Assembly (NCBI GenBank): GCA_000092065.1
Contig: CP000600.1
From: Ostreococcus lucimarinus
Taxonomy: Eukaryota
Length of the DNA stretch: 64,000 bases
Direction: 5' to 3' (one strand)
Shown: positions 13,669 to 56,931 of the stretch, piece by piece
Position numbering within the stretch: the stretch's first letter is position 1
Layout of the letters: each line of letters opens with the position of its first letter
Position numbers and translations under genes: made by a program
Notes under the pieces: model-generated
What the model was told of the DNA's origin: nothing
Databases searched by the model: none
What the model saw: only the letters and a program-made list of their open reading frames with translations

Positions 13669-14442
13669 ATGGACGGCGCGACGCCGACGGCGGATTGGTT
13701 GAGCGACTTTTTTGACTCCTTTGACGCGGATGACGTCGGGGCGTTCGACGGCGCGAACGCGTTCGCGGACGTGCCGACGGAGGTGATCGGGGGTGAGGGC
13801 CCTAGGGTTCGAGCGGCGGGGACGAAACGAAAGGCGACGGAGGAGGCTGACGGGAGTCAGGATGAACGCGTCGCGGTGACGGCGACCTCGGTGGCGGCGA
13901 CCTCGGTGGCGGCGACCACGGCGGCGGCGACCACGGCGACGGGACGCTCGAATGTGTTGAGCGAAGGGGCGAAGAAGACGAAGAGCACGCGGGAGAAGCG
14001 TCGACGCGACGTTTTGAACAGTCGCTTTGAGGAGCTCAGCGCGGTGCTCGAACCGGGTGAGTCGCAGGGTGAGTCGCAGTCGAAGGCGACGGTGGTGTTC
14101 GCGGCGACGGAGTTGATCAAGCGACTGCGTGTCGAACACGCGAGGTTAGCGAACATGATCATGCGATTCCAAGAGGATAACCTGCTAAAGACGGAGCTCA
14201 CCCAAAAGCTCGCTGCGGAACGCGATCAACTCATGCAAGAAAAGACGCATTTATTGCGAGAGAAGCTTCGCATCGAGGCACAGTTACAAGGTTTCTTGAC
14301 GAGCATGCCGTTTGCGTCTCCCGCGGATGGCATGGTGTCCACGAAATCGGCGAGCGGCGTCGCGGCGTGGACCGTGCCCATGCCCTTCATGCCGGCGAGC
14401 GAAGAAGGAGAAGACGTCACCTTGCGCGCCCCTGTGGCGTAA
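13669..14442 (+). CDS. bHLH-leucine-zipper transcription factor
   Basis: KTKSTREKRRRDVLNSRFEELSAVLEP...KATVVFAATELIKRLR has the basic-helix-loop-helix signature (ERxRR..LN..F..L), followed by heptad Leu repeats. Start is the first ATG after the upstream gene (MDGATPTADW...). Confidence 0.65.
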   Translation: MDGATPTADWLSDFFDSFDADDVGAFDGANAFADVPTEVIGGEGPRVRAAGTKRKATEEADGSQDERVAVTATSVAATSVAATTAAATTATGRSNVLSEGAKKTKSTREKRRRDVLNSRFEELSAVLEPGESQGESQSKATVVFAATELIKRLRVEHARLANMIMRFQEDNLLKTELTQKLAAERDQLMQEKTHLLREKLRIEAQLQGFLTSMPFASPADGMVSTKSASGVAAWTVPMPFMPASEEGEDVTLRAPVA

Positions 14443-14544
14443 CCAATTGTCTTATGACAAATCGACATGATTTACAATTGTACCTAAAATATCCTAGTCC
14501 TAGTAATTTGTGATCATTTGTAATTTGTGATCGCAGAAAACGAA

Positions 14545-24068: not shown

Positions 24069-27000
24069 ATGACGACCGCGAGCCTCGCGTCGCCGCGCGA
24101 CGTCGCGGAGGAGGAGGACCGACGGGACCAACGACCATCGGCGACGAAACGAAGCGATGACGCGGCGTCTACGAGCGAGAACGACGTGCCTGAAGAATAC
24201 GCTGAGAACGCGAGTGCGGTGATACGCGAAACGCTCGATGGCTTCCTCGAGTACGTCGAGACGTGGGCGCAGAAGACGAGGGAGACCGCAGACAACTTGG
24301 GGGAGGAGGGTGTTTCAAATCGCGGGCCGCGCGCGAGCGGGAACGGGGCGAAGGATGCGATCGTCCTGAACGGCGATCCGCGCGAAAATATACGGATTGA
24401 AGATCTCGTCACGTGCGAAAATGCGCTGTTGAGCAAGACGACGATGATTTTAGCGCATTTAGGCGGCGAAGTCGAGCGGTTGAGCGCCGTGGCAGACGAA
24501 ACAATTTATCCGATGCTTACGACTTTCGGCGAGAGAGCGAATGATGCGGACGTGATGTCCGATGCAGAGTTACGAGATGCATTCGTTGGGAAATTAGAGC
24601 CGCTTCAAGACGCACTGTTATTCATGGATCAAGTCAGAGCGGTCGTGTGTAACTTGTTCACGCAACTCACGGTGGTGTATTCGACGTTCGCGGCATACAC
24701 GCCGTATCAAACTGTGCGTTTGGCGTGGTCATTCGATATGCTCGGTCGTGCACTAGCAATTGGAGTCGGAATTGATGAGGTGGTTAGGAACAATAGGGCG
24801 TTGCGGTCGGCGCTGATGAATTTCAAACGCGTGGTGCTGCTCCTTCGAGCCAATCCCGAGCAGTTCGGCATGAACGAAGTCGACGTCGTGAGCTTGGATT
24901 CGGCGGTTGCGATCATCGAAAATCAATTGCTCTCATCTTCATTCTTTGCCTCAGTGCTCACACAGCTCACAGAAACCGAACAACCTGATCGATTTATCAA
25001 GGAGCTCGCCGGCACAACTCTCGAGCTTCTCGAAAGCACGACGGCTCGATTGAATACCGACTCGGAGCGGTTGAACGATAAACGCACACTGCTGTCGTGT
25101 CTTTGCTTGACTATGCTTCATTCAGGATTAGTTCCCGATATAGCCGATAGAAAACTCTGCATGAAGGCGTGGGAAGTCTACAAGGTGTGCGTGCTGGTGT
25201 CGGTGACGACGACGGTTTCAGTGTGTCCAGGGGCAATACTAGAAGCGCATCTATCTCCAGCCGCACGAGAGTGCTTTCCTGATAATGGTTTAGAATCAGT
25301 GATCTCGTTTCGTCGAGAGACGCTCGAGACTCTGGATGAGACTTTCCCTGCGAAGCTCCTCGATTTGTTGTCGGCTTCAGTCGCCTGGCTCACCAAGTTT
25401 ACGGCGACACCAAACGTCTCGCATAGCTTATCGAGCACAATGAACGCTCGCACGAGTTTGTTTCAGGAGGGTATGAGACTGGTAAATCGACTGCGCCACT
25501 ATACTCAGGAGATCATACACCTCCACGTGTCTCTGGAGGCCCCGGTCACGAAGCGGCGGGTGCGACTCATCGCTCGCGCCGTGGAAATGTTGCAAGCCAT
25601 GTGCGAAGCTTTCACTCAAAATCTCAATTTGAGTTTGGAAGTGCAGCACGTGCTGAAATTTCTAGCAGATAGAATACATCGCATGATGGTACGTTTGAAA
25701 CGCTTCTGAGATCGATCGGCTCACATCTGACCTTTTCACGCAGGTTCCTACTCGGGAATTATTAGAAAACAAAATTTCGACGACGACGACGTCGAGTGGA
25801 TGGGAACGCTTAAAGGCTCAAATTTCGTCGGGAAAAGCCGAAAACAATAAACAGGACACCCTCGCGACGGTCAATATCGCAGGTAAGCTTTTCATTCTCC
25901 GTCTAGATGACGTACAAATTAAATTAATTATTTCATTTATTTAGTGCATGTTTTGTCTGGGCCGGCGACTCGAAAAAGGATGCATGTTCTTCGAATCTGC
26001 CTCGATGCGATCCGTGGAGCGAGTCTTCTCAGTGATGAAGATGTCGTGCTCGCATCTGAGTTCGTGGAACTCGTAGAAGTGCTCTCCACGTACCGCAAAA
26101 GCGTTCAAGATCAATGTGATACTTCCTTTTTATTTTTCACGAGGGAATTATTTCCGGTGTGTTTGGCTGATATTTACGTCAAGCCGAACGAATCTGGACG
26201 TCTTACTTTGCTTGTGAGTGCGTTTCGCAATTGTGAAACGTTATTAATGCGTGCTGGAGCGAGCGATAGCGAAGTGGCGACGTTTGACAATTATATTCGA
26301 ACGTCACTGGAGCGAGAAATAATTCAACCGCTTTGTCGAGATATTGAGACAGATTTGAGGTTGCATCTTCATTCTGCGCGCATAGCAGGCGTCATGAACA
26401 CGAATCCGTTCAAGGATGGCGTTCGAGACTTGTCGTTGTTCACGAATCTGCCGCCAATCTACACGTTGAAGCACCAGGTGCGAATATTATTTATTTAATT
26501 AATTGTGGCGAATTTGAAACTGACCGGATTTCGTCCTCGTCGTTGACAGATCGACATTCGTAATCGCGTCGAAGGTTATTTAAATCAGACCTTCCACAAT
26601 CACACGGCGATTGCTCTTCATAACTGGAAGGTGAGTGATAAAATAATTAATTTGTCCTACTTCGCAACCGAGCGAGCTGCCTTTTACGAAAACGACGACT
26701 AACGATCTATTCGCGCGCAGTCTTACGTGGAAATGAGAAATCTTGCGATAGAAAAGTACGGCTTACGCTGCGCCGAGATTGAGCTTCCGAGCCAGACGCT
26801 CGAACAAGGCTTGGATGTGTTGGAGCTGATGCGCAATATCCACGTCTTCGTGTCGAGGTACAACTACAACTTGAACACACAGTGCTTTGTCGAGAAGGCG
26901 AGCGCGGCGCTCGATCGCAAGCATCTGAACACCATAAGTATTCGGCATGTCGCCAACTCTATCAGAACGCACGGAACGGGCATCACGCACACGACCATCA

Positions 27001-27965
27001 ACTTTGCCTATCAGTACCTGGCGCAAAGATTTCAGATTTTCAACCAGTTTCTCTTTGACGACCACATCAGAAGTCAACTCATGAAAGAAGCTCGAATGGT
27101 GCACGCCGAGACAAAGGCTAAGAGTGATACTATCAAGTTAAGCTCAAAGCAAGCAGGATATCGCGCATCGACTGTGGACGAAAAGTTTGAGTACCCAGTC
27201 GAACGCGCCCTTCGAGTGATGCGCGACATTCGAAAGCTCGGTTTATCGAAGGACGGCTCTTCGTTCATCGACGAGTTCCGTGTGTTAGTGACTGAAATCG
27301 GTAATGCGCTCGGTTTTGTTCGCATGGTTCGTCTCGGTGCGATGCACTACAGCACCAACGCCGCCAAGTTTGTACCGAGTGCGCGCGGGTCGAAGTTCGC
27401 CCTCGATGAGAGCCTCGACGCCGACGGTTTGTCCGAGTGGACAAAGACGGCACTGAAAAATCTGCAGAGTGAATTAAAAGCCTTAAGCACAGGCGGTACC
27501 GATGGTACTGACTATTTTCAAGTCCTCGTATCGGTTTTTTCGACCGAGCTTCGAAAGGGTCACGAACACCTAAAAGACTTTTACTTGGTGCTTCCAGCGC
27601 TCACGATGAGCGCCGCTGAAACCATCCTGGCTTCAAAAGACAAGCTCGTGCGACGTGGTAAAGATTCACAGACCGCCACTTTCACCGATGATGGTTTAGC
27701 ACTTGGGATCGTGTACCTGCTGAGCGTCCTCGATCAACACGAAGCCTTCGATGCGCTGCATTGGTTTGAGTCCGCCTCGCACCACTTCGAAGCGGAGGAG
27801 AAGCGCGCAAACGAGGAAACCGGTGGCACTTTCGGCATTTTAGGTCGTAGCATCGACGAAAAGACCAAGCTTCAGGTCAAGTTGGATAAGATTGACGCGT
27901 TAAGGCGCGAGTTTGTACACTTGAAGCATTCACTCGTCGGCGCGCGAAGCTTTGTGAATTTGTAA
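24069..27965 (+). CDS. WASHC5: Strumpellin-like protein (WASH complex subunit 5 homolog), five exons
   Basis: Exons (±1 nt): 24069–25688, 25744–25882, 25945–26477, 26550–26630, 26721–27965, about 1200 aa in total (human strumpellin is 1159). Introns have canonical boundaries (GTACGT..CAG, GTAAGC..TAG, GTGCGA..CAG, GTGAGT..CAG) and are AT-richer than the exons. The segments ...HNWKSYVEMRNLAIEKYGLRCAEIEL... and ...RYNYNLNTQCFVEK... match the human strumpellin region ...[37 protein letters not shown] (my recall of the family). Confidence 0.5.
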
Positions 27966-28124
27966 TTGTAGACGCCTCGCCGCACTCAGCCACAGACGCT
28001 GTGAAAACCTCAGCTTTTCATCGTCATCTTCCAAACGTCATCGTCCGCCACATCACAGTCGCGCGCGCGTCGTCGTCGTAAAGTAAGTGATACTCTGCTC
28101 CAATACAACATCGCACGCCTCGTC

Positions 28125-29555
28125 ATGTCGTGCCAAGCGATGTTAAACACGCCCGCGCTCGCGCCGGCGGTGACATCCGTCGCCCACCGTCGCCCTAGCC
28201 GCCGAGGTGCTCGCGCGTTGACGCGCGCCAACGCCGGTGGTGCCATGGAGCAGCTCACGTTGAAGCCGATGAAGAAAATTGAAGGCACGGTTCGATTGCC
28301 GGGGTCTAAGTCGCTGTCAAACCGCATTCTGCTCCTCGCGGCGCTCGCAGAAGGAACGACCAAGGTGGAAAACTTGTTGGATAGCGACGACATTCGTTAC
28401 ATGGTTGACGCGCTTAAAGTTCTGGGGCTGTCCTTCACGGAAGACAGAGAGAACAACATTTTGGAAATCACCGGTTGTGGGGGTAAGCTCCCGGTCGAGG
28501 GCGCGGAGTTGTTCCTCGGTAACGCCGGGACGGCGATGCGACCGCTCACCGCCGCCGTGGCTGCGGCGGGTAAAGGCACGTTCATCCTCGATGGTGTCGA
28601 GCGTATGCGTGAAAGACCAATTCAAGATCTTGTTGATGGTTTGGTTCAGCTTGGTGTCAAGGCGGAGTGCACGATGGGTACGGGTTGCCCGCCGGTGAAG
28701 GTTGAGGCGAACGGCTTGCCTGGCGGTCGCGTCGAGCTCAGCGGTTCCGTGAGCTCGCAATACCTCACCGCGCTCCTCATGGCGGCCCCACTTTGCGAAG
28801 GGTCGATTGAAATCGTAATTGTCGATGAGCTCATCTCCAAACCGTACGTTGAGATGACTATCACACTCATGGAACGCTTCGGTGTCAAGGTAGAAAAGGC
28901 GGACGACCTCCAGAGCTTTAAGATTCAAGGCGGACAAAAGTACATCTCCCCGGGCAGTGCATTTGTTGAAGGCGATGCTTCGTCCGCTTCCTACTTCCTC
29001 GCCGGTGCCACCATCACCGGTGGTACCGTCACTGTCATCGGTTGCGGTTCGGAGAGCATCCAAGGCGACACAAACTTTGCGTACACGATGGAGCAAATGG
29101 GCGCGACGCTCGAGTGGGGTCCGAACTCGGTCACCTGCACCGGTCCCAAGGGCCCGCTCAAGGCGATTGATGTGAACATGAACGCCATGCCCGACGCTGC
29201 GATGACTCTTGCCGTCGCTGCACTCTTCGCTGACGGCATCACTACCATTCGTGATGTCGCGAGCTGGCGCGTGAAGGAAACCGAGCGCATGATTGCGATT
29301 TGCACCGAGCTGCGCAAGCTCGGTTGCGACGTCTTCGAAGGCGCGGATTACTGCGTCATCACCCCTCCTCACAAGCTCGACCCCCCGGCCAAGATGAAGG
29401 CCAACGTTGACATCGATACCTACGACGATCACCGCATGGCCATGGCTTTCGCCTTGGCCGCGTGCGGCGACGTCGACGTCGTCATCAACGACCCGAAGTG
29501 CACGAAGAAGACTTTCCCGACGTACTTTGACGTCCTCAAGTCCGTCGCCAAGTGA
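28125..29555 (+). CDS. aroA: 3-phosphoshikimate 1-carboxyvinyltransferase (EPSP synthase), plastid-targeted, stand-alone (not AROM)
   Basis: [22 protein letters not shown]...[11 protein letters not shown]...DHRMAMAF... are classic EPSPS motifs. A ~40-aa S/A/R-rich N-terminal transit peptide precedes them. Confidence 0.9.
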
Positions 29556-41121: not shown

Positions 41122-43671
41122 TCACTCGATGGGAACCGCTTGGAAGATTACAGCGGAGCGGTCGACGCACACATAAGCGTTACGACGAAGCGAAGGCAAA
41201 ATCATAGCCTCCGCGGTGTATAAATCAGCCTCGGCGACATCATCGCCGGACACGAAGTCAAACGGTGTCTCCAATGCGGTGTCGAGAACGAGTTTCCATC
41301 GCTGGCCCTCGGGAGGGGTTGGAAGCTTCACGAAGGCTGGTTCGTGGTGCGCGTTGAAGGCGACGTAAAACTTTGGTGACTCCGTGGTATCCTGCAAAGT
41401 GAACGCCACAAATCGCGAATCTTCCTCCCAGAGCGGAACTTCAGGTTTATGTCCGTGCCATTGAATGTTCTCGGCGGTCGGAAACGCTGGAAGTCGGAAT
41501 GCACTGTTGTCCTTGCGAAGCGTGGTGAGTTGGCGGACGAATCTCGCAAGTCCTTCGCCGGCGAGTGGATCGTTTGCCTCGTCCCAATTAACCCAATTCA
41601 TCCAGTTATCGTGACAATACGTGTTGTTGTTACCGCACTTAGTGTGTCCGTATTCATCTCCCATGTACAACATCGGCACACCCTGAGCGACGAATAGTGC
41701 AACCATGAAGTTTCTCATTTGTCGATCTCGCAACGAGCAAATCTCAGGATCGCACGACTCACCATCGTCCTCGCACGTCAAACCGCAATTCCATGATTGG
41801 TTGTGCTCTTCCCCGTCGCGGTTCTCTTCTCCGTTTGCGATGTTGTTCTTCTCGTTGTACGTCACGCAGTCGCGCAACGTGAAACCGTCGTGAGCGGTGA
41901 CAAAGTTGATGCTCGCCGCGGGAGTTCTACCATCGGCGTAGAGCTCGGGGCTACCACACAAACGTTCGGCAAACAAACCAGCGTAACCATCAACGCCTCT
42001 GATGAAGTTACGCACGTCATCACGAAACTTCCCGTTCCACTCAGACCACACGCCAAAGTGCGGGAACGAACCGACTTGATACAATCCGCCGGCATCCCAC
42101 GCCTCGGCGATCAGCTTCGTCCCGGCCAACACGGGATCATTGCTAACGGCATCGATTAACGGTGGGTCTTGAAGCGGAGTTCCAATCGCCACCTCTTCTA
42201 ACATCGGTGTCTCTGCCGTTGATTCGCCAAAAATGTTTGCGCGATCCCACTCGCTTGAGGCGCGCGTGAGAATACTCGCCAAGTCAAATCTGAAGCCATC
42301 GATGTGATATTCGAGCACCCAGTAGCGCAAGCATTCGACGATAAATTCGCGCACCACTGCGTGGTTGCAATTCATTGTGTTACCGCATCCGCTGTAGTTG
42401 TAGAACTGCCCCTCCGGGGCGACCATGTAATACACGCGATTGTCCAAGCCTCGGAACGAGAGTGTCAAACCTTCCTCGTTCCCTTCAGCCGTGTGATTGA
42501 AGACCACATCCATGATGACCTCAATGCCGGCTCGATGTGCCTCTCGTACCATGTACTTGAACTCTTGAGCCGCCGCGCGACCGCAATCTTTGTCACCAGC
42601 CTCGGCGTATCGAGTCATCGGACTGAAAAAGTTGACGGTGCTGTATCCCCAAAAGTTTCTTCGAAATTCCCCCGTGGCTGGGTTCACGCTGTGATATTCC
42701 AACTCATTGAATTCATGGCAAGGCATGAGCTCAATAGCATTCACTCCCAGTGTCTTCAAGTACGGCAACGTCTCCACGAGCGCGGCGTATGTACCGGGTT
42801 GCGCCTTGGTTTTCAAATCCGCCGTCATCCCTCGAACGTGCGCCTCGTACACGACGAGGTCGCTCATCGGACGATTCGGCGAAGTCACGCCTTGCCAGTC
42901 AAAATCTTCTCGATCGTCCTTTTTATTCTTTTTCGGCACCGCACCCGCGTATTGCGGCCAGCAATCTTCGCTCCCGTCCGCCTTCTTACCCAGTTCGCCG
43001 TACCGAGGTCGACTCACCGTCGCCTTGGCGTACGGATCGAGCAAAACCTTACTGCGATCGAATCTGTGCCCTTTCTCGGGTTCGTACGGCCCATCGACTC
43101 TGTACCCATAAAGCACGTTCTCCGCACACTTCGGCAGCGCGACGTGCCACACGCTCCCAGTCTTATTGACTCTATCGTCGAGCTCAATCTCGGCGGTAAT
43201 CTCGCCCTTCGCCAACGCCTCGGGCGTCCACAACACCAAACTCACCGCCGTCGCCGACGACGAAAACACCGCAAAATTCACACTGTCATCCTTATCTCCT
43301 CTCACGCGCGTCGCTCCCAGCGCCTGCGCGTTCCCGCGCGTCGGCGTTTCGCACACGCCTCGCACCGCCGCCGGCGGCTTCGGCGGCGTCCGCGTCGTCG
43401 TCTTCACCACCGTCGTCATCGGCGCCTTCCCGCGCGCCATCGGCGGGTTCGCCTCCACCCTCCCGCTCGCTCCCGTCGTCGCGTCGCTTCGCGTCGTCGT
43501 CGTCGTCCGCGCTCGCGCGCGCGCGCTCGCGCGCCTCGTCCCCGTCCCAAACGTCCCCGTCCCCGTCCCCGTCCCTCCGCGCGTCGTCCCGCGCGCATCG
43601 CGCCTCGCGCGTCGCGCGTCGCATCGCGCGACGCGCGTCGTCGCCGCCGCCGTCGTCGTCGTCGCCGCCAT
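41122..43671 (-). CDS. ISA: Isoamylase-type starch debranching enzyme (GH13), plastid-targeted
   Basis: GH13 conserved regions: GFRFDLASIL (region II), LIAEAWDAGG (region III), NFVTAHDGFTLRD (region IV), plus an N-terminal CBM48-like segment. A~T/R-rich transit peptide. Confidence 0.85.
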   Translation of the reverse strand: MAATTTTAAATTRVARCDARRARRDARGTTRGGTGTGTGTFGTGTRRASARARARTTTTTRSDATTGASGRVEANPPMARGKAPMTTVVKTTTRTPPKPPAAVRGVCETPTRGNAQALGATRVRGDKDDSVNFAVFSSSATAVSLVLWTPEALAKGEITAEIELDDRVNKTGSVWHVALPKCAENVLYGYRVDGPYEPEKGHRFDRSKVLLDPYAKATVSRPRYGELGKKADGSEDCWPQYAGAVPKKNKKDDREDFDWQGVTSPNRPMSDLVVYEAHVRGMTADLKTKAQPGTYAALVETLPYLKTLGVNAIELMPCHEFNELEYHSVNPATGEFRRNFWGYSTVNFFSPMTRYAEAGDKDCGRAAAQEFKYMVREAHRAGIEVIMDVVFNHTAEGNEEGLTLSFRGLDNRVYYMVAPEGQFYNYSGCGNTMNCNHAVVREFIVECLRYWVLEYHIDGFRFDLASILTRASSEWDRANIFGESTAETPMLEEVAIGTPLQDPPLIDAVSNDPVLAGTKLIAEAWDAGGLYQVGSFPHFGVWSEWNGKFRDDVRNFIRGVDGYAGLFAERLCGSPELYADGRTPAASINFVTAHDGFTLRDCVTYNEKNNIANGEENRDGEEHNQSWNCGLTCEDDGESCDPEICSLRDRQMRNFMVALFVAQGVPMLYMGDEYGHTKCGNNNTYCHDNWMNWVNWDEANDPLAGEGLARFVRQLTTLRKDNSAFRLPAFPTAENIQWHGHKPEVPLWEEDSRFVAFTLQDTTESPKFYVAFNAHHEPAFVKLPTPPEGQRWKLVLDTALETPFDFVSGDDVAEADLYTAEAMILPSLRRNAYVCVDRSAVIFQAVPIE

Positions 43672-50837: not shown

Positions 50838-51644
50838 TCATTCCGTCTTCGTCTTTCCCCGCGTCGACTCGCGCGTCGGAAACGTGACCACAGCCAAAAC
50901 ACTCGCCGTGACTATTATGACGCACCCGACGATCATTAAAAGCAACCCGTACTCCGACGATGAATTCGAAATCGCCTTCTCGACGTGCTTACGCGCAGCC
51001 TTGAGCCCTTCTCGCGAAAACGCGCGTCGAGCCGCCGCGTAATCCGCCGTCAACACGTGCGTCATCTTATCCGTCTTCGAGTACAACCGCACCATCGCCA
51101 ACGCGATCGCGCTCGTTATTCTCGCGAATTTCTTCTGAATGTACGTCAACGGCACCGGGACGTCGTGCTCGGCGCCCTCCGTCCCGAACGTCTCCGTCGC
51201 GAACCTTCGCGCGCTGTCCCCGTCCTCCTCCGGCGTCACCTCTCGCGCGTACGCCTTGCCCCCGCGCAGCAGACACCAGCTCGGTGTTCTCTTCACCACG
51301 AATCTAAACCGATCGTACGTCTCCGGGGACTCTCGCGCGTCGATCGTCGCCGCGACGACGCCGTCGTCCAGGAGCGCGTCCTTCGCCAGCGCCAAAGCCC
51401 TCTCCGCGCGCGCGCCTCTGGGACCGTCGCCGTCGGTGAACAGCACCAGCCACGTCCCCGCGGTCTGCCCGCTCGACGCTTGCGTTTCGCGCTCGAACGA
51501 GGCGTCGTCCAGGCGAGGAAGGCCGCGAAGGGTGGGGACGACGGCGAGCGCGCGGGACGCCGACGCGAGGACGAAGACGACGGCGAGGGCGACGCGCGAC
51601 GCGCGACGGCGGCGCGCGCGGAACGTCGTCGTCGTCACCGTCAT
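50838..51644 (-). CDS. Hypothetical membrane protein with a possible thioredoxin-like fold (signal peptide, C-terminal TM)
   Basis: ATG at 51644 (MTVTTTTF...). Hydrophobic leader RVALAVVFVLASASRALA. C-terminal TM helix GLLLMIVGCVIIVTASVLAVV. No CxxC. Confidence 0.4.
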   Translation of the reverse strand: MTVTTTTFRARRRRASRVALAVVFVLASASRALAVVPTLRGLPRLDDASFERETQASSGQTAGTWLVLFTDGDGPRGARAERALALAKDALLDDGVVAATIDARESPETYDRFRFVVKRTPSWCLLRGGKAYAREVTPEEDGDSARRFATETFGTEGAEHDVPVPLTYIQKKFARITSAIALAMVRLYSKTDKMTHVLTADYAAARRAFSREGLKAARKHVEKAISNSSSEYGLLLMIVGCVIIVTASVLAVVTFPTRESTRGKTKTE

Positions 51645-51809
51645 GGACGCGTCGCGCGCGCGAGACGTCGTCACCGCGCGCCGGAGCGCGGATCTGTGAC
51701 GCGTCTCGCGCGCGAGACGTCTCGCGCGCGTCCGCGCCGAGATATTTTTAGAGACGTCTGATATTGCATGTTGTACTTCTCGTGTCGATCGCCGCGAACG
51801 AGCGCGCGA

Positions 51810-51826
51810 TCACTCACTCGCCCGGT

Positions 51827-51857
<31 letters not shown>

Positions 51858-52394
51858 GTCGACCTCCTTGCCGAACCACTTGGCCACCATCGGCGTCAGC
51901 GCCACCGTCGGCCCGAACCTAATCGGCGAACTCGCCTTATGCGCCGCGTACGCCAGCGCGAACGTCCCGAACTGTTCGCTCGTCGCGTTCACGCTGATCC
52001 CAATCTTATCCAACAGGCTCGCCACGTCCACCCCGCCCGCGACGAGAAAATAAAACACCGTGATCGAAATCAAGCTCAGCGAAATCGACGTCGCCAGATA
52101 CGCCGACCCGTACCGCTTGAGCAATTTCTTCGCCATGTCCATGCGCGACGTCCCGAGCTCTTCCGCGCCCTCGCTCGCGCCCTCGCCCGTCTCCGTCCCT
52201 CCCGCCGCGCCGCCGCCGTTCTTGAACACCTTCCACAGCCCCGCCTCGAGTCCCCACTTTCGCGTCGTCGCGTCGATCTCTCGCTCCTTCGCGTTCTTCG
52301 CCTTCGCCCGCGTCGTCGTCGTCGTTCGCGCCGTCGCGCGTCGCCGTCGCGTCGCGCGTCGCGCGCGCTTCGCCGTTCGCGTCGCGTCGTCCAT
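51810..52394 (-). CDS. DUF1279/FAM210-family mitochondrial membrane protein
   Basis: C-terminal LLKRYGSAYLATSISLSLISITVFYFLVAGGVDVASLLDKIGISVN matches the FAM210/DUF1279 core. Start at an in-frame ATG (MDDATRTAKR...). The rest of the 649-aa track ORF is antisense to MurE and was discarded. Confidence 0.6.
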
Positions 52395-52397
52395 CGC

Positions 52398-52436
<39 letters not shown>

Positions 52437-52632
52437 GATTCGCGTCGTCGCGATTCGCGTCGTCGCGCGCGTCGTCGCGCGTCGCGATCGCGCGCCGTTC
52501 GCGACGGGCGCGATTCTCGCGCGGTGCATCGCGCGCGCGGCGTCGCGCGCGCGGCGCAATCGCGACGCCGCGGATCGCGACGACGCGCATCGCGACGACG
52601 CGATTGCGCCGGACGATGCATAAAACAATACG

Positions 52633-52677
52633 CGCACTGTTTGCGCACACGTATGTAGACACCGAATGTCCGAATAC
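52633..52677. promoter_or_regulatory. Second copy of the CGCACTGTTTGCGCACACG + CCGAATGTCCGAAT motif pair (DUF1279/MurE divergent promoter)
   Basis: Exact 19-mer and 14-mer shared with 30123–30165. Confidence 0.35.
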
Positions 52678-52802
52678 ACACCTTTCATATAATAACCACA
52701 CAAACACCGATCGAGCAAACCCAGCCCGACGCCGCGTCGGATTCGCCAACCGCCGGCGGCGGCGCGCGATCGCACACGACGCCGCGCCGCGCGGACGCCG
52801 CG

Positions 52803-54941
52803 ATGTCGCGCGTCTCGAGCGCGACGCGCCGATGCGTCGCGCGACGCCCGTCCGCGGCGACGCTCGGACGCGCGACGGGACGACCGCGCGCGACGACGCG
52901 ACGACGGACGACGCGCGGTTGCCCTCGCGAGGACGCGCGAGGACGCGCGACGCGCGCGCGAGCGACGACGCGGGACGCGCGCGCGAGCGACGACGACGAG
53001 GGATGCGACGACGACGCGCGCGACGACGTCGGGACGGGCGCGGCGCGCGCGCACGCGGAGATCGGGCGCGAGGAGGATGAGGAGGGCGACGCGGAGGCGC
53101 TGCTGCGAGAGATTTTCGAAGACGCGGGCGTCGACGCGAGGTGGATCGCGCTGGAGGACGACGAGGACGTGGAGATATCGGGAATAGCGAACGATGTGAA
53201 CGCGCTGTTGAGCGGGGATCTGTTCGTGTGCGGGTCGGCGCGAGAGGGAGGGGCGATGGAGGACGCGGCGAGGGAAGCCGTGGCGGCGGGCGCGGTGGCG
53301 GTGGTTTCGGAACGCGCGATCGAGGGGTTGGCGGATGTCCCGATCGCCGTGGTCGAGGACGTGGACGAGGCGTTGGCGGATATCGCGAGAGTGTTTTACG
53401 GCGATCCGTCCAAGGCGCTGACGGCGATCGCGCTGACGGGGAGCGTGGGGAAGACGACGACGTCGTACCTCGTGAAAGCCGTCTTCGAGGAGGCGGATAT
53501 TCGCATGGGGCTCGTCGGGTCGAATGGGAATTACGTCGGCGATGAACTCAAGCTCACGGCGCAGGGTGGGGTGTGGGAGAGCGATGAAGAAGACACCACG
53601 CGCGGTCGCACGAGCACGGCGCCGGGGTGGTTGGCACCGTATCGAGGCAAGTACGAATTCGAAGAGCGCGGTTCGGACGCGCTTCAGTTTCAGCAACTCA
53701 CCGCGGGCATCGCCGATAACGGCGCGCAGGCGGCGGTGATGGAGGTGAGCGCGGAACAAGTGCGGCGAAAGGCGACGCGTGGGATGAACTTTGACATCGT
53801 CGCACTGACGTCACCGCTCGAAGGCCCGGACGCGATGAGCGATCGGCGTAAGGATTATCGAGGGTTGGACGCTGAGTACTCGTCGCACGTCGCCGAGGTC
53901 TTCAAAGCGCTCGAAGACGCCGAGACGCAGCGAGCGGTGATCAACGTGGATGCGATTGATGACAACGATAAGACCCCTTATCACGAGTTATGCAAAGAAC
54001 ACGCCAAGGGCGTTCCTCAGTTGACGTATTCTGTGGATCCCGAAAACCCGAACGGGGCGGACGTTTACCCCGCGCGCGTCGACTATTCCCTCTTCGAGAC
54101 GGCGGTGTCGCTGAGCACGCCCGCTGGCAACGTCGAGGTCGTCGTCGGTCTCGTGGGTGAGCATATGGTCAACGCGATCTGTTGCGCTACCGCGATAGGT
54201 CTCGCGGCGGAAATTCCCCTCGACGTCATCGCCGCCGGATTGGAGGCGACGGATTCGATTCCAGGGCGCATGGAGCTCGTGGACGCGGGTCAAGATTTTT
54301 CGGTGTTGGTGGATAGCGCGAACACTCCCGAAGCGATCAGAAGTGTGATTGATAGCGTCAAAGCGACGAATTGTAGGCGAGTCATCACCGTCATCGGTTG
54401 TGAGGGCGAAATGGCGGAGAGCGAACGAGGGCAGCGCGCCGTCATCGGTAAGACGGTGCACGACCATTCGGACGTCGTCTTCGTCACGAACGATTCCCCC
54501 AAGGCTGAGGACCCGTACAAAATCCTTGAAGACATCTGCGCTGGATTTAGAGACGAAATTTATTCCAAGCCCGGCATGGAGGACGAGGCGCTGTTCCCAT
54601 TCTTGAAGGACATGTACGAGGTGCACGAAAACGCCCAATACGAGTGCATGCGGCTTCAAAACTTAGTTCGTAGATACGTCATGGTGGACCGGTACCACGC
54701 CATTCGCGCCGCCATCGGTATGGCGGAGCGCGATGACGTGGTGCTCATCATAGGTCGCGGCGCGAAGGATTACTTTGTCGTCGGTCGCGAGAAGCATTGG
54801 TTCGACGACGTCGTCGAGGCTCGAGACGCGCTTCAGAAAATCGGCGCCATTCAGGACAGCGGCGTCGACACCCACAACCTTCCGTGGATGTCCCTCGCCG
54901 CTCGAGCCACCAATCCGGGCGCGGGTAACTTACTCGGATAA
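52803..54941 (+). CDS. murE: MurE-like Mur ligase (UDP-MurNAc-tripeptide synthetase homolog), organelle-targeted
   Basis: Mur ligase N, central and C domains: GDLFVCGSAREGG...GAVAVVSE...VPIAVVEDVDEALADIARVFYGDPSKALTAIALTGSVGKTTTSYL.... The MurE-specific DNPR motif region is conserved as VFVTNDSPKAEDPYKILEDICAG (E. coli: [22 protein letters not shown]). An R/T/A-rich ~90-aa leader precedes it. ATG at 52803. Confidence 0.8.
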   Translation: MSRVSSATRRCVARRPSAATLGRATGRPRATTRRRTTRGCPREDARGRATRARATTRDARASDDDEGCDDDARDDVGTGAARAHAEIGREEDEEGDAEALLREIFEDAGVDARWIALEDDEDVEISGIANDVNALLSGDLFVCGSAREGGAMEDAAREAVAAGAVAVVSERAIEGLADVPIAVVEDVDEALADIARVFYGDPSKALTAIALTGSVGKTTTSYLVKAVFEEADIRMGLVGSNGNYVGDELKLTAQGGVWESDEEDTTRGRTSTAPGWLAPYRGKYEFEERGSDALQFQQLTAGIADNGAQAAVMEVSAEQVRRKATRGMNFDIVALTSPLEGPDAMSDRRKDYRGLDAEYSSHVAEVFKALEDAETQRAVINVDAIDDNDKTPYHELCKEHAKGVPQLTYSVDPENPNGADVYPARVDYSLFETAVSLSTPAGNVEVVVGLVGEHMVNAICCATAIGLAAEIPLDVIAAGLEATDSIPGRMELVDAGQDFSVLVDSANTPEAIRSVIDSVKATNCRRVITVIGCEGEMAESERGQRAVIGKTVHDHSDVVFVTNDSPKAEDPYKILEDICAGFRDEIYSKPGMEDEALFPFLKDMYEVHENAQYECMRLQNLVRRYVMVDRYHAIRAAIGMAERDDVVLIIGRGAKDYFVVGREKHWFDDVVEARDALQKIGAIQDSGVDTHNLPWMSLAARATNPGAGNLLG

Positions 54942-54943
54942 CC

Positions 54944-55015
54944 GCGCCGTCGCGCCGTCGCGCCGTCGCGCCGTCGCGCCGTCGCGCCGTCGCGCCGTCG
55001 CGCGCGCGCGCGCGC
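54944..55015. repeat. (CGCCGTCG)~7 octamer tandem repeat followed by a (CG)n run, immediately 3' of the MurE stop
   Basis: Seen directly in the sequence. Confidence 0.85.
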
Positions 55016-55090
55016 GTCTCGACGTCTCGACATCTGTATCACACGACGCGACGCCGCTAGCTTGTCACCGACATCGCGCACCCTCACCGT

Positions 55091-55351
55091 CTACTCGTCC
55101 TCCGCGAACAGCTCGTTCGCCTTTCGCATCACCGCCGCGACGTTTTCCCTGATGCACGCGCGCTCCTCCGCCAGTTTCGTCACCCGTCGTTCCATCGCGT
55201 CGCGCAGCTTTGCCCCGCTCGCGCGCGCGCGTCGCGCGTCCTCGCCCGCGCGCGCGCACGCGTCCGCCATCTCGCGCGTCGCGCGTTCGCACGCGTCCGC
55301 GAGCGCCGCGCGCGTCGCTCGCTCGCTCGCGTCGTCGTCGTCGTCGCGCAT
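55091..55351 (-). CDS. Possible small coiled-coil protein (86 aa), hypothetical
   Basis: ATG-initiated ORF MRDDDDDASERATRAALADACERATREMADACARAGEDARRARASGAKLRDAMERRVTKLAEERACIRENVAAVMRKANELFAEDE. It starts with the inverted copy of the same ATGCGCGACGACGACGACGACGCG motif that begins the divergent ankyrin gene. Weak support. Confidence 0.25.
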   Translation of the reverse strand: MRDDDDDASERATRAALADACERATREMADACARAGEDARRARASGAKLRDAMERRVTKLAEERACIRENVAAVMRKANELFAEDE

Positions 55352-55422
55352 CGCGTCGCCGTGTCGCGTCTCGGACGTCTCGGACGTCGCCGCGACACTT
55401 CGCGACGCCGACGCCGCGCGCG

Positions 55423-56931
55423 ATGCGCGACGACGACGACGACGCGATGCGCGACGACGCGACGGCGACGCGGTCGACGACGGCGACGACGGGACGCGCG
55501 TGCGCGCGCGCGCGCGACCTCGCGGACGCCGCGCGAAAGGGGTGCCGAGAATGCTACGCGCGTCTGCATCGCGACGAGTACGGATCGCCGCCGTGGAGGC
55601 GCGACGACGACGCGATGCGCGACGACGACGAGGAGACGTACCTGGGATACAGTCTGCGCGGCGTGCGAGAGGCGCTGCAGACGCTGGTGGACGCGACGAC
55701 GATGAAGGACGTCGAGAGGGAACGCGACGACGACGACGCGAAGGCGCGCGCGTCGATCGAGCGCGAGACGCGGCGATCGTTCGCGCTTTGGATTCTTGAG
55801 TTCATGACCGAGCGAGAGTACGAGTGGAAACACATAAACGCGCGAGATTTTCCGAGTCTTGAAGATGGGTTCCGCGTGCTGCGGGAGATTCGATATTTGA
55901 TTTGGAAAATCGGCGACGTCGAGATTCTGCGGGCGGCGGCGAACGTCCGAGAGAGCCATCCCGGGACGGGCGCGCCTCTGGGGGACGGTTTGAGAAATCT
56001 GGACATGTTCGATCACTCAAACTTTGTGATTGCATATTTCCATGTTCCCGTTGAGATCTATCGATTCTATCACGAAGAAATGCCATCGTTGGTGCCAGAT
56101 TTGGAAGATCGGAAAAAATGCAAAGTCTTAGCGACGCAAGGCGGATTGTATCGGAAAAACATGAGCGAATGGTGGTGCGTTGTCGATTATCTTCTCGCGA
56201 TAGGTTACGAGTGGCCCGTGGAAACGATGGCGAAACTTGTTCATTGGCACAGAAAGTTTGACGACACCGAGAAGAAGGCGCTCGAAGATTACAAAGCGGC
56301 CGGGTGCCCGTATCATCCCCGCGTAGTTCGCGAGGCGGCAAAGCAAGGAAGTCTGGATGCTCTCAAGTGGCTGCGTGAGAAAAATGCGCCTTTCGACAAG
56401 TACGCGGTGAGCTGGGCGGCGAATTCCGGGCAAGTGGAGACGCTTAAGTATCTTGTGCAAGAAATCAAGGTCAAACCGGATCCGATGATGTGCGCGCGAG
56501 CGGCCGAGGCGGGCGAGTTGACCGCTTTGCAGACATTGCACGAAGCCGGCGTTCCGTGGGATAAGCGATGTATAATCGCCGCGGCGAAGGAGAAAAAATC
56601 CAAGAAGAAGCGCAAGCGCGAGGAATGGAGTTCGTGGAATAAGCTCGGTCGCATTCGATGTCTGCAATTCGCGCTCGCCTACGGCTGTCCGGGCGCCGAA
56701 GACGCGCTCGCCCTCTCCGACCAAATCTCGGAGAACACCCGCATCTACCTTCGCCAAGTCGTCCGATGCCCCGGCATCAACCACTGGTTCTTCCGAATCA
56801 GCCGCATCCTCGGCAAAACGGTGCAAACCAAGATGCCCGCCGCGGAGCGAACCGTCCTCGAAGTCTGCACCAACGAGCTCCGACTTCGACAACTGAATTT
56901 CGAGAGCGACGCCTTCGCCGGCATCGTTTAG
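55423..56931 (+). CDS. Ankyrin-repeat-containing protein (hypothetical)
   Basis: Three ~33-aa repeats: AAKQGSLDALKWLREKNAPFD / AANSGQVETLKYLVQEIKVKPD / AAEAGELTALQTLHEAGVPWD. The N-terminal domain is unrecognised. Start at the first ATG of the MRDDDDDAMRDD leader. Confidence 0.45.
   Translation: MRDDDDDAMRDDATATRSTTATTGRACARARDLADAARKGCRECYARLHRDEYGSPPWRRDDDAMRDDDEETYLGYSLRGVREALQTLVDATTMKDVERERDDDDAKARASIERETRRSFALWILEFMTEREYEWKHINARDFPSLEDGFRVLREIRYLIWKIGDVEILRAAANVRESHPGTGAPLGDGLRNLDMFDHSNFVIAYFHVPVEIYRFYHEEMPSLVPDLEDRKKCKVLATQGGLYRKNMSEWWCVVDYLLAIGYEWPVETMAKLVHWHRKFDDTEKKALEDYKAAGCPYHPRVVREAAKQGSLDALKWLREKNAPFDKYAVSWAANSGQVETLKYLVQEIKVKPDPMMCARAAEAGELTALQTLHEAGVPWDKRCIIAAAKEKKSKKKRKREEWSSWNKLGRIRCLQFALAYGCPGAEDALALSDQISENTRIYLRQVVRCPGINHWFFRISRILGKTVQTKMPAAERTVLEVCTNELRLRQLNFESDAFAGIV

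What the first reader, a model, noticed from the sequence alone, without database searches (positions are those of the whole stretch)
52803..54941. MurE-like peptidoglycan ligase in a nuclear eukaryotic context, with a variant DAP-binding motif (DNPR to DSPK)
A full three-domain Mur ligase with the MurE-specific motif region (VFVTNDSPKAEDPYKILEDI) and a long R/T/A-rich leader sits among ordinary nuclear genes, divergently paired with a DUF1279 gene. Established knowledge: MurE homologs in the green lineage are plastid proteins. Some prasinophytes (Micromonas), glaucophytes and bryophytes retain a peptidoglycan pathway, whereas in seed plants MurE-like has been repurposed for plastid transcription. 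Changing Arg to Lys within the DNPR motif could alter diamino-acid selection. Whether this copy is a biosynthetic or a repurposed ligase is open.
Basis: partly seen in the sequence, partly recalled or inferred. Interest (0 to 1): 0.7.

Follow-up and report, generated by a model that had tools for sequence, protein, structure and literature searches.

The report
Inactive MurE-like protein of Ostreococcus plastids
This nuclear gene of the marine green picoalga Ostreococcus lucimarinus encodes a descendant of the bacterial cell-wall enzyme MurE that keeps its fold but has lost its catalytic residues, and is most likely a structural subunit of the chloroplast RNA polymerase; the gene was already reported, so the finding is largely ordinary.

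Summary
The ORF is real and sits exactly at 52803..54941 (+), 712 aa, in Ostreococcus lucimarinus CCE9901. It is a true three-domain MurE homolog of the green-lineage clade. Its best sequence and structure matches are PAP11, the MurE-like subunit of the plant plastid-encoded RNA polymerase (PEP). DNPR→DSPK is only one of about 24 changes at 43 conserved catalytic and substrate-binding positions. The carbamylated Lys is Val, the D209/H210 pair is Arg-Arg, and the DAP-binding residues R389, N414, R416 and E468 are all replaced. Only the P-loop Lys and Thr residues and the Mg-binding Glu survive. The folded part is under purifying selection (dN/dS 0.18), but the former active-site positions evolve at the background rate. 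The two C-domain additions through which PAP11 binds the polymerase are present. Published work says Ostreococcus keeps only DDL and MURE of the peptidoglycan pathway, and that Chlamydomonas PEP contains an orthologous MurE-fold subunit (PEPS3). The same decay arose independently in Chlorophyceae, some Trebouxiophyceae and the Ostreococcus/Bathycoccus group. The gene and its family role are already known. The residue-level decay census is a modest addition.

The parts
52689..52802 (.). 114-bp spacer between the divergent start codons of the FAM210/DUF1279 gene (51804..52688, -) and the MurE-like gene. Presumed shared promoter region (inferred).
   Evidence: Sequence read. The neighbour has a Pfam PF06916 hit. 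The same arrangement occurs in orthologous loci L003 and L007.
52803..54941 (+). Complete intron-less CDS of the MurE-like protein (712 aa plus stop), the O. lucimarinus ortholog of PAP11/PEPS3.
   Evidence: ORF. In-frame stop upstream at 52656, and no other Met before residue ~151. The identical protein is on contig L002. Orthologs of 712-735 aa exist in four sister clades.
52803..52982 (+). Basic, hydroxylated, Ala-rich presequence (aa 1-60), a putative plastid transit peptide.
   Evidence: Residues 1-60 have 19 R+K, 3 D+E and 25 S+T+A, and the first acidic residue is at position 43. The leader (1-95) evolves almost neutrally, dN/dS 0.84. Targeting itself is inferred, not tested.
52983..53087 (+). 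Acidic linker (aa 61-95) preceding the folded protein.
   Evidence: Residues 61-110 contain 20 D+E and 4 R+K. It cannot be aligned between clades.
53088..53417 (+). N-terminal Mur-ligase domain 1 (aa 96-205). Folded, but below Pfam detection.
   Evidence: NCBIfam NF001124 aligns residues 117-680 to model positions 20-495. Residues 110-251 align with the PAP11 N-domain. The AF2 model has pLDDT of mostly 86-97 over model residues 1-110, with one 10-residue block at 77.
53418..54212 (+). Central (ATP-binding-type) domain, aa 206-470.
   Evidence: Pfam Mur_ligase_M covers 212-465, E 5.5e-16.
53439..53462 (+). P-loop GSVGKTTT (aa 213-220). The Lys (K119 equivalent) and both Thr are kept; the conserved Thr-Asn is replaced by Ser-Val.
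   Evidence: K119 and E182 equivalents are retained in every green-lineage sequence examined, decayed or not.
53547..53666 (+). Chlorophyta-specific insertion of about 47 aa in the central domain (LKLTAQGGVWESDEEDTTRGRTSTAPGWLAPYRGKYEFEE).
   Evidence: The segment is 46-47 aa in all Chlorophyta sampled (100 in Bathycoccus) against 13-15 in streptophytes and bacteria.
53808..53903 (+). Degenerate catalytic loop: TNLxxDHLDxHG has become TSPLEGPDAMSDRRKDYRG, and the carbamylated-Lys position (E. coli K224) is Val363 (nt 53889-53891).
   Evidence: The loop varies in length and sequence among the Ostreococcus clades.
54213..54809 (+). C-terminal domain (aa 471-669) with degenerate DYAHTP (now DSANTP), GGDRDxxKR (now EGEMAESERGQR) and GKGHE (now GRGAK).
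   Evidence: Pfam Mur_ligase_C covers 488-653, E 1.9e-17.
54492..54503 (+). DSPK (aa 564-567), the former DAP-binding DNPR motif.
   Evidence: SP(K/R) is shared with Bathycoccus, and N414S recurs in other decayed chlorophyte lineages.
54537..54692 (+). Green-lineage C-domain insertion (about aa 579-630, ...ALFPFLKDMYEVHENAQYECMRLQNLVRRY...), the counterpart of one of the two PAP11 folds that are absent from E. coli MurE.
   Evidence: 50 aa here, 33 in plant PAP11 and 13-14 in bacteria. The role of these folds in beta-prime clamp-toe and PAP1 contact comes from PMC11561172.
54810..54938 (+). Green-lineage C-terminal tail (aa 670-712) with the conserved ...G[VI]DT..[LF]PW motif.
   Evidence: 43 aa here, 27-32 in streptophytes and 12-14 in bacteria. 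P694 and W695 are near-invariant in the green lineage and absent in bacteria.

Best explanation
The gene encodes the Ostreococcus lucimarinus ortholog of the green-lineage MurE-like protein, known as PAP11 in angiosperms and PEPS3 in Chlamydomonas. [quoted passage not shown] It would dock on the beta-prime clamp region through the green-lineage-specific additions of its C-terminal domain. It no longer ligates diaminopimelate or lysine to UDP-MurNAc-dipeptide. Shown here: homology, fold, orthology, loss of catalytic and substrate residues, purifying selection on the fold, and loss of special constraint on the active site. Inferred: plastid import and PEP association in Ostreococcus, by phylogenetic bracketing between Chlamydomonas and angiosperms.
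For: (1) Family. PAP11 chains are the best PDB sequence hits (8w9z_N 1e-86, 8r5o_Q 2e-85, against bacterial MurE at 1e-34 or weaker). They are also the best structural hits (8r6s_Q E 1.6e-53, TM 0.88 normalised to the target). NJ trees place the protein in a monophyletic green-lineage clade (100/100 and 60/60). (2) Catalytic death. Only 19 of 43 conserved motif positions are kept, against 40-43 in bacteria and in intact algal or plant forms. The changes include K224V, D209R, H210R, H186E, R389M, N414S, R416K, H467A and E468K. Curated MurE model cut-offs are missed (TIGR01085 244.1 < 257.3; NF001126 254.3 < 373). (3) Still functional. dN/dS is 0.18 for residues 96-712 against 0.84 for the leader, and 0.09-0.63 for neighbouring genes. 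Intact ORFs exist in five Ostreococcus clades and in Bathycoccus, with conserved synteny. (4) Constraint has moved off the active site. Motif sites are invariant at 42/43 in the intact clade (background 0.63, p = 3e-7) but at 26/43 in Ostreococcus (background 0.67, p = 0.41). (5) PEP-binding features. Both C-domain additions absent from bacterial MurE are present, and these are the elements through which spinach PAP11 contacts the beta-prime clamp-toe and PAP1 (PMC11561172). (6) No pathway. The three Ostreococcus genomes and Bathycoccus contain only DDL and MURE (PMC4815162). (7) Bracketing. Chlamydomonas PEP contains the MurE-fold subunit PEPS3, orthologous to PAP11, with its substrate pocket filled by beta-prime (bioRxiv 10.64898/2026.06.23.732312). 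Chlorophycean relatives show the same decay (20-22/43) and the same insertions as the window protein.
Against: There is no direct evidence for plastid localisation or PEP association in any Mamiellophyceae. The targeting inference rests on leader composition only. The partner subunits (PAP1/PEPS2, and the beta-prime extension) were not examined in Ostreococcus. The P-loop Lys and Thr residues and the Mg-binding Glu are retained in all lineages, so nucleotide binding, or some residual or novel chemistry, is not excluded. Retention of DDL alongside MURE is unexplained by a purely structural role. A plastid-division role has been claimed for Arabidopsis MurE (cited in PMC12681378). The streptophyte-specific N-terminal domain of PAP11 is absent.
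Confidence: 0.7

Rival explanations
1. It is an active peptidoglycan-pathway MurE whose DSPK motif changes the third-position amino acid (meso-DAP versus Lys).
For: MurE models are the best NCBIfam matches. The three-domain fold is intact. The P-loop Lys and Thr residues and E182 are kept.
Against: The carbamylated Lys, D209/H210, H186, the TTP motif, Y357/H359, D388/R389/K393, N414/R416 and H467/E468 are all replaced. These sites evolve at the background rate within Ostreococcus. Curated MurE cut-offs are not reached. The genome is reported to lack MurA-D, MurF, MraY, MurG and PBP.
Confidence: 0.03
2. It is a nucleotide-binding pseudo-ligase, or a ligase with a new, non-peptidoglycan substrate, possibly working with the retained DDL. 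Its selected function is chemical or regulatory rather than structural in PEP.
For: GxxGKTT and the E182 equivalent are invariant in all five Ostreococcus clades and in all decayed lineages. Ten replaced pocket residues are themselves fixed across Ostreococcus: G, A, E, S, V, E, S, R, A and K at the T158, S185, H186, N205, K224, G386, N414, K465, H467 and E468 equivalents. DDL is co-retained.
Against: The residues needed for acyl-phosphate formation and Mg2+ coordination (K224, H210) are gone. The catalytic loop varies in length among sister clades. In Chlamydomonas the equivalent pocket is occupied by a beta-prime segment, which would also explain newly fixed pocket residues.
Confidence: 0.12
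3. It is a plastid-division or envelope-associated scaffold independent of the RNA polymerase, a relic of the peptidoglycan-linked division role seen in moss.
For: MurE knockouts in moss give macrochloroplasts, and a division role has been claimed for Arabidopsis MurE (PMC12681378).
Against: Those phenotypes depend on peptidoglycan synthesis, which Ostreococcus cannot perform. The conserved green-lineage additions map to PEP-contact elements. The chlorophyte ortholog is a stoichiometric PEP subunit located in nucleoids.
Confidence: 0.1
4. It is a decaying relic (pseudogene in progress) with no selected function.
For: Massive loss of catalytic motifs. A long branch leads to the Ostreococcus/Bathycoccus group.
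Against: dN/dS is 0.18 over 617 codons with dS about 0.8. The ORF is intact in at least six species-level lineages, with conserved synteny. The fold prediction is confident. 67% of non-motif sites are invariant across the five clades.
Confidence: 0.02

Closest known systems
PAP11 / MurE-like (AtMurE, ALBINO OR PALE-GREEN 13) of angiosperm plastid-encoded RNA polymerase (PDB 8r6s_Q, 8w9z_N, 8xzv_J)
   Same: Best sequence and structure match. Same green-lineage clade. Same three-domain fold. Same two C-domain additions absent from bacterial MurE, and the same conserved C-terminal ...GxDT..xPW tail. The Brassicaceae protein (Sinapis) is degenerate at several of the same sites (D209E, H210D, K224E, DNPG; 28/43).
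   Different: There is no streptophyte-specific N-terminal domain; the leader is only about 95 aa. There is an extra insertion of about 47 aa in the central domain, specific to Chlorophyta. The C-domain insertion is longer (50 versus 33 aa). Catalytic decay is much deeper than in most angiosperms (19/43 versus 38-42/43 in tobacco, Amborella, Dioscorea and eudicots). PEP association is unproven here.
PEPS3 of the Chlamydomonas reinhardtii 2-MDa PEP complex (bioRxiv 10.64898/2026.06.23.732312)
   Same: A chlorophyte MurE-fold protein reported as orthologous to PAP11 and judged non-enzymatic in the complex, with its pocket filled by beta-prime. Chlorophycean relatives (Tetradesmus, Raphidocelis, P0047) share the central insertion, both C-domain additions and a similar level of decay (20-22/43) with the window protein.
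   Different: The PEPS3 sequence and structure were not available to me, so the comparison runs through chlorophycean relatives. The decay arose independently in the two lineages. Whether Ostreococcus beta-prime has an equivalent pocket-filling segment is unknown.
Bacterial and cyanobacterial MurE (UDP-MurNAc-L-Ala-D-Glu:meso-DAP ligase, e.g. E. coli 1E8C), and the active plant or algal MurE of moss, Picea and intact-type prasinophytes
   Same: Homologous three-domain fold (TM 0.81-0.89 normalised to the target). The P-loop Lys and Thr residues and the Mg-binding Glu are conserved.
   Different: 24 of 43 catalytic and substrate-binding positions are replaced, including the carbamylated Lys and the entire DAP-binding set. 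Curated family cut-offs are missed. It has additions that bacteria lack. The organism cannot supply the substrate.

Membership tests
Mur ligase superfamily (fold level) | Three-domain architecture: N-terminal domain, central P-loop domain and C-terminal domain. | tested here: met
   Pfam M and C domains. The AF2 model has pLDDT 90. Foldseek aligns about 600 columns to MurE and PAP11.
Catalytically competent MurE (EC 6.3.2.13 / 6.3.2.7) | Score above the curated NCBIfam MurE cut-offs. | tested here: not met
   TIGR01085 244.1 < 257.3; NF001126 254.3 < 373; NF001124 239.3 < 476.
Catalytically competent MurE (EC 6.3.2.13 / 6.3.2.7) | P-loop GxxGK(T/S) for ATP binding. | tested here: met
   GSVGKTTT at aa 213-220. 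Lys and Thr are kept, and Thr-Asn is replaced by Ser-Val.
Catalytically competent MurE (EC 6.3.2.13 / 6.3.2.7) | Carbamylated Lys (E. coli K224) and the D209/H210 Mg2+/phosphate ligands. The residue roles are recalled from the 1E8C literature, and the positions coincide with invariant columns. | tested here: not met
   K224 is V363. D209/H210 are R/R. H214 is R.
Catalytically competent MurE (EC 6.3.2.13 / 6.3.2.7) | Diamino-acid pocket: R389, DNPR (N414, R416), G464 and E468. | tested here: not met
   R389M, N414S, R416K and E468K. Only G464 is kept.
Catalytically competent MurE (EC 6.3.2.13 / 6.3.2.7) | Upstream pathway (MurA-D) present in the genome to supply UDP-MurNAc-dipeptide. | not testable with these tools
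   The rest of the genome was not searchable here. PMC4815162 reports only DDL and MURE in the three Ostreococcus genomes.
Green-lineage MurE-like PEP subunit (PAP11 / PEPS3) | Orthology: placement inside the monophyletic Chloroplastida MurE clade, following the species tree. | tested here: met
   Green lineage 100/100 and 60/60. Mamiellales, decayed and intact together, 60/60. All decayed forms together 0/60.
Green-lineage MurE-like PEP subunit (PAP11 / PEPS3) | Two C-terminal-domain additions absent from bacterial MurE, which mediate beta-prime clamp-toe and PAP1 contact. | tested here: met
   Insertion of 50 aa and tail of 43 aa, against 13-14 and 12-14 in bacteria. Conserved tail motif. 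The functional role comes from PMC11561172. Presence was tested; binding was not.
Green-lineage MurE-like PEP subunit (PAP11 / PEPS3) | Plastid targeting. | tested here: inconclusive
   The leader composition is compatible with a transit peptide. No targeting predictor or localisation data were available.
Green-lineage MurE-like PEP subunit (PAP11 / PEPS3) | Physical presence in the purified PEP complex. | not testable with these tools
   Shown only for angiosperms and Chlamydomonas.
Streptophyte PAP11 specifically | Streptophyte-specific N-terminal domain of about 200 aa. | tested here: not met
   Alignment to PAP11 starts at query residue ~110 and PAP11 residue ~244. The query has only a 95-aa leader of low complexity.
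   FolC 28 bits and cyanophycin synthetase 60 bits, against MurE 254 bits. Cyanophycin synthetase ranks 47th or lower in Foldseek.

The most novel reading that the evidence does not exclude
The Ostreococcus/Bathycoccus protein may be a natural separation-of-function form of MurE. The ligase chemistry is erased, but the P-loop Lys and the Mg-binding Glu are kept in every decayed lineage, and ten replaced pocket residues are newly fixed across Ostreococcus. This suggests the old active-site cleft has been re-specified. It could clamp a segment of the RNA polymerase beta-prime subunit, as in Chlamydomonas PEPS3, and perhaps also act as a nucleotide-sensing switch on plastid transcription. Across Mamiellales the decay appears stepwise and tracks the reported loss of the peptidoglycan pathway: intact-type Mamiellaceae at 42-43/43, M. 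commoda-like at 36/43 with K224 already lost, and Ostreococcus and Bathycoccus at 17-20/43. That pattern would mean the polymerase role predates and outlives the enzymatic one.
Probability: 0.3. Interest if true: 0.5.

Novelty: already known. Interest (0 to 1): 0.3.

Why it matters
The question of why green algae and seed plants that cannot make peptidoglycan still keep MurE has been open for nearly two decades. Recent PEP structures answer it for angiosperms and Chlamydomonas. This locus adds a clean natural experiment. In one of the smallest free-living eukaryotes, the catalytic machinery of MurE has been erased, while the fold and the polymerase-contact additions remain under purifying selection. 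That supports a structural role as the selected function, ancestral to Chloroplastida. It does not reveal a new kind of system. The practical value is a warning against annotating this gene as a functional "UDP-N-acetylmuramyl tripeptide synthase", and a pointer to transformable O. tauri as a minimal system for studying PEP accessory subunits.

Tried and rejected
(1) Pseudogene: rejected on dN/dS 0.18, conserved ORFs and synteny.
(2) Ancient paralog for the decayed forms: rejected. A tree built without the motif columns follows the species phylogeny, and the decayed forms never group together (0/60).
(3) FPGS or cyanophycin synthetase: rejected.
(4) Contig L002 (SRR1179203) as transcript evidence: rejected. 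It is 100% identical to the window but ends in tandem repeats on both sides, so it is an assembly break.
(5) Naming the intact-motif Mamiellophyceae clusters, to tie them to M. pusilla or CCMP2099: this failed. Only the Pyramimonas, Bathycoccus and M. commoda clusters carried names. The correlation between intact motifs and a full pathway within Mamiellaceae is therefore inferred.
(6) Direct comparison with Chlamydomonas PEPS3: not possible. Its PDB entry is not in the library, and no Chlamydomonas sequence was returned. Chlorophycean relatives were used instead.
(7) Literature search for a prior description of catalytic decay in Ostreococcus or Bathycoccus MurE: none found in the searchable library. 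This is not proof of absence.
(8) Not done: a targeting predictor, a genome-wide search for other Mur genes, and a complex prediction with beta-prime. No tool was available for any of these.
Full report
OBSERVATION. An in-frame stop lies upstream at 52656, and there is no alternative Met before residue ~151. The quoted peptide VFVTNDSPKAEDPYKILEDI is residues 559-578. Pfam detects Mur_ligase_M (212-465) and Mur_ligase_C (488-653). The N-terminal domain is missed by Pfam but is aligned by NCBIfam MurE models and by PAP11. It folds confidently in an AlphaFold2 model of residues 96-712 (mean pLDDT 90, pTM 0.91). The divergent neighbour at 51804..52688 (-) is a FAM210A/B (former DUF1279) protein. 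Only 114 bp separate the two start codons. The first 42 residues of the leader contain no acidic residue (13 Arg), and an acidic stretch follows.

SOURCE ORGANISM AND CONTEXT. Two long window ORFs are identical in sequence to Ostreococcus lucimarinus CCE9901 RefSeq proteins XP_001422576.1 and XP_001422735.1 (Nup133). Other window ORFs fall in clusters that contain O. lucimarinus entries. Orthologous loci from marine metagenomes keep the gene order Nup133 / G-patch / unknown / FAM210 / MurE-like / small ORF / ... / peptidase M16 / complex I B2 / MFS, both in the same species and in a sister clade. This is an ordinary nuclear locus of a Mamiellophyceae picoalga. The window is gene-dense, and this gene has no intron.

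WHAT THE PROTEIN IS. Among solved structures, the best sequence matches are the MurE-like subunit PAP11 of plant plastid-encoded RNA polymerase: 8w9z_N at 1e-86, 8r5o_Q and 8qma_O at about 1e-85, and 8xzv_J at 4e-81. Bacterial MurE follows at 1e-34 or weaker. Foldseek on the model also ranks PAP11 first (8r6s_Q, E 1.6e-53, TM 0.88 normalised to the target). Bacterial MurE comes next, with MurF, MurC and cyanophycin synthetase far behind. NCBIfam's best families are all MurE (254 bits), against MurF 102, cyanophycin synthetase 60 and FolC 28. No curated MurE cut-off is reached. In NJ trees the protein groups with four sister clades at 76-80% identity (100/100). That group is sister to Bathycoccus prasinos (98/100), and both lie inside a monophyletic green-lineage clade containing plant PAP11 (100/100).

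THE ACTIVE SITE IS GONE. I aligned the protein to E. coli MurE, taken from NC_000913. Genome numbering equals the 1E8C paper numbering plus 1, and my recalled functional residues K119, T120, H210, K224, R389, N414, R416, G464 and E468 all land on invariant columns. I then scored 43 positions of the conserved Mur-ligase and MurE motifs. Bacteria and intact algal forms keep 40-43 of 43, tobacco PAP11 keeps 39 and Sinapis PAP11 keeps 28. The window protein keeps 19.

The individual motif changes are as follows.
- GTNGKTT has become GSVGKTT.
- TTP has become RGS.
- MEVSSHGL has become MEVSAEQV.
- TNLxxDHLDxHG has become TSPLEGPDAMSDRRKDYRG.
- The carbamylated Lys is now Val363.
- DYAHTP has become DSANTP.
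- GGDRDxxKR has become EGEMAESERGQR, so R389 is now Met.
- DNPR has become DSPK.
- GKGHE has become GRGAK, so E468 is now Lys.

DSPK is therefore one symptom of a dismantled site, not a specificity switch. On its own, R to K is unremarkable. DNPK is described as common in streptophyte MurE (PMC12681378), and I see it in tobacco, Amborella and eudicots.

IT IS NOT A PSEUDOGENE. Against the sister-clade ortholog (L003), dN/dS is 0.18 for residues 96-712 (dS 0.78), but 0.84 for the leader. Neighbouring genes range from 0.09 to 0.63. The selective regime at the old active site has changed. In seven intact-type Mamiellophyceae sequences the motif sites are invariant at 42 of 43, against a background of 0.63 (Fisher p = 3e-7). 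Among the five Ostreococcus clades they are invariant at 26 of 43, against a background of 0.67 (p = 0.41). The former catalytic loop even varies in length between clades. Ten replaced pocket positions are nevertheless fixed across Ostreococcus. Several derived states (E at H186, S at N414, K at R416, S at Y357) are shared with Bathycoccus, so inactivation predates the split of the two genera.

WHAT IT MOST LIKELY DOES. Three lines of published evidence converge. First, van Baren et al. 2016 report that the three Ostreococcus genomes and Bathycoccus contain only DDL and MURE of the peptidoglycan pathway. [quoted passage not shown] Second, in angiosperms the MurE-like protein is PAP11, a PEP subunit that binds the beta-prime clamp-toe and PAP1 through two folds of its C-terminal domain that are absent from E. 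coli MurE (PMC11561172). Third, a 2026 preprint shows that Chlamydomonas PEP contains PEPS3, a MurE-fold subunit orthologous to PAP11. Its substrate pocket is occupied by beta-prime, and it is proposed as one of the earliest recruited subunits. O. lucimarinus was in that study's comparison set.

The window protein has both C-domain additions. The insertion is 50 aa, against 33 in plants and 13-14 in bacteria. The tail is 43 aa, against 27-32 in plants and 12-14 in bacteria, and it carries the conserved GxDT..xPW motif.

A broader census supports this reading.
- These additions are present in every green-lineage sequence and in no bacterium.
- A central insertion of about 46 aa marks all Chlorophyta.
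- Decay to 19-23 of 43 sites recurs in Chlorophyceae (Tetradesmus, Raphidocelis), in the trebouxiophytes Coccomyxa and Symbiochloris, and in Ostreococcus and Bathycoccus.
- Myrmecia, a pedinophyte, Pyramimonas, intact-type Mamiellaceae, a liverwort and a streptophyte alga stay at 41-43.

A tree built without the motif columns follows the species phylogeny. Mamiellales are monophyletic in 60/60 bootstraps and core chlorophytes in 60/60, while all decayed forms together never group (0/60). The decay is therefore repeated and independent in one orthologous lineage, not an old paralog. Because Chlamydomonas and angiosperms bracket the Mamiellophyceae, the simplest inference is that the Ostreococcus protein is a plastid-imported, non-catalytic PEP subunit. 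I put this at about 0.7. The catalytic-death component is close to certain; PEP association is inferred.

RIVALS. An active MurE with altered specificity is essentially excluded (0.03). A nucleotide-binding or otherwise chemically active pseudo-ligase is possible (0.12), because the P-loop Lys and Thr residues and the Mg-binding Glu survive in every lineage and DDL is co-retained. A PEP-independent plastid-division scaffold is possible but less parsimonious (0.10). A decaying relic is refuted by the selection data (0.02).

NOVELTY AND SCORE. The gene sits in a genome published years ago. Its presence as MURE in Ostreococcus is in the literature, and the family's structural role in PEP is established for plants and now for Chlamydomonas. 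I found no paper describing the residue-level decay in Ostreococcus or Bathycoccus, or its gradient across Mamiellales. That is an incremental refinement rather than a new kind of system. I rate it as already known, with interest 0.3.

LIMITS. No targeting predictor, genome-wide search, complex prediction or PEPS3 sequence was available. The trees are NJ on BLOSUM distances with 60-100 bootstraps. The plant PAP11 sequences were rebuilt from HMMER alignment printouts (lengths verified), and were later corroborated with full-length plant sequences. The functional roles of the E. coli residues are recalled from the 1E8C literature, not re-derived here.

Noticed in passing
window 54942-55016: A tandem octamer repeat (CCGTCGCG-like, about 7 copies) followed by a (CG)n run starts immediately after the MurE-like stop codon. 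The only public contig carrying the exact protein (L002) breaks inside this repeat, and at its other end inside a (GTC)n run at about 52413.
   Followed up: partly
window 55091-55351 (-): An 86-aa ORF convergent with the MurE-like gene is called at the same position in orthologous loci of two Ostreococcus clades (84-86 aa). It has no Pfam hit, only 41% identity between clades and dN/dS of about 0.6. It is unclear whether it is a real gene.
   Followed up: partly
window 55210-56931 (+): An ORF of up to 573 aa with ankyrin-repeat hits lies downstream. O. lucimarinus-type contigs carry it as calls of 375-502 aa. The sister-clade locus L003 has only a 229-aa gene at this position, so this appears to be lineage-specific gene content inside otherwise conserved synteny.
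   Followed up: partly
window 52878-54750 versus L007/L009: The window's MurE-like gene differs from metagenomic O. lucimarinus-type contigs by 7 substitutions. All are nonsynonymous and none synonymous, and 5 lie in the leader (G26R, C68R, D69E, D70G, T78M, V552A, I650L). The flanks are 99.5% identical. The numbers are too small for significance (about p = 0.15 under neutrality).
   Followed up: partly
P0010 / P0044 (Micromonas commoda-type homologs): The M. commoda-type MurE keeps DNPR, R389 and E468 but has already lost the carbamylated Lys (Val in P0010, Thr in P0044), H186 and the TTP motif (36/43). This matches the species' reported partial pathway (MURE, MRAY, MURG, PBP) and looks like an intermediate stage of decay.
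   Followed up: partly
alignment of green-lineage MurE-like proteins; query K217 and E314: The P-loop Lys (K119 equivalent) and the Mg-binding Glu (E182 equivalent) are retained in every decayed lineage examined (Chlorophyceae, Trebouxiophyceae, Ostreococcus/Bathycoccus, Sinapis). N414 to Ser recurs independently in several of them.
   Followed up: no
window 50838-51674 (-): A conserved neighbour (268-278 aa, called in all orthologous loci) has no Pfam family above cut-off, only a sub-threshold Trp_oprn_chp match. Its dN/dS is about 0.57. Function unknown.
   Followed up: no
window 14001-16000 and 26001-28000: Two 2-kb stretches have distinctly lower G+C (0.51 and 0.49) than the window average of about 0.60.
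   Followed up: no
window 28125-29555 (+), 41122-43671 (-), 12009-13196 (+): Other identifiable genes in the window are EPSP synthase, isoamylase and the complex I assembly factor NDUFAF5. The ATG-to-stop ORFs (476, 849 and 395 aa) are longer than the NCBI protein models in the same clusters (436, 765 and 274 aa, the last marked partial), probably at the N-terminus. This suggests unannotated presequences or different start-codon choices.
   Followed up: no
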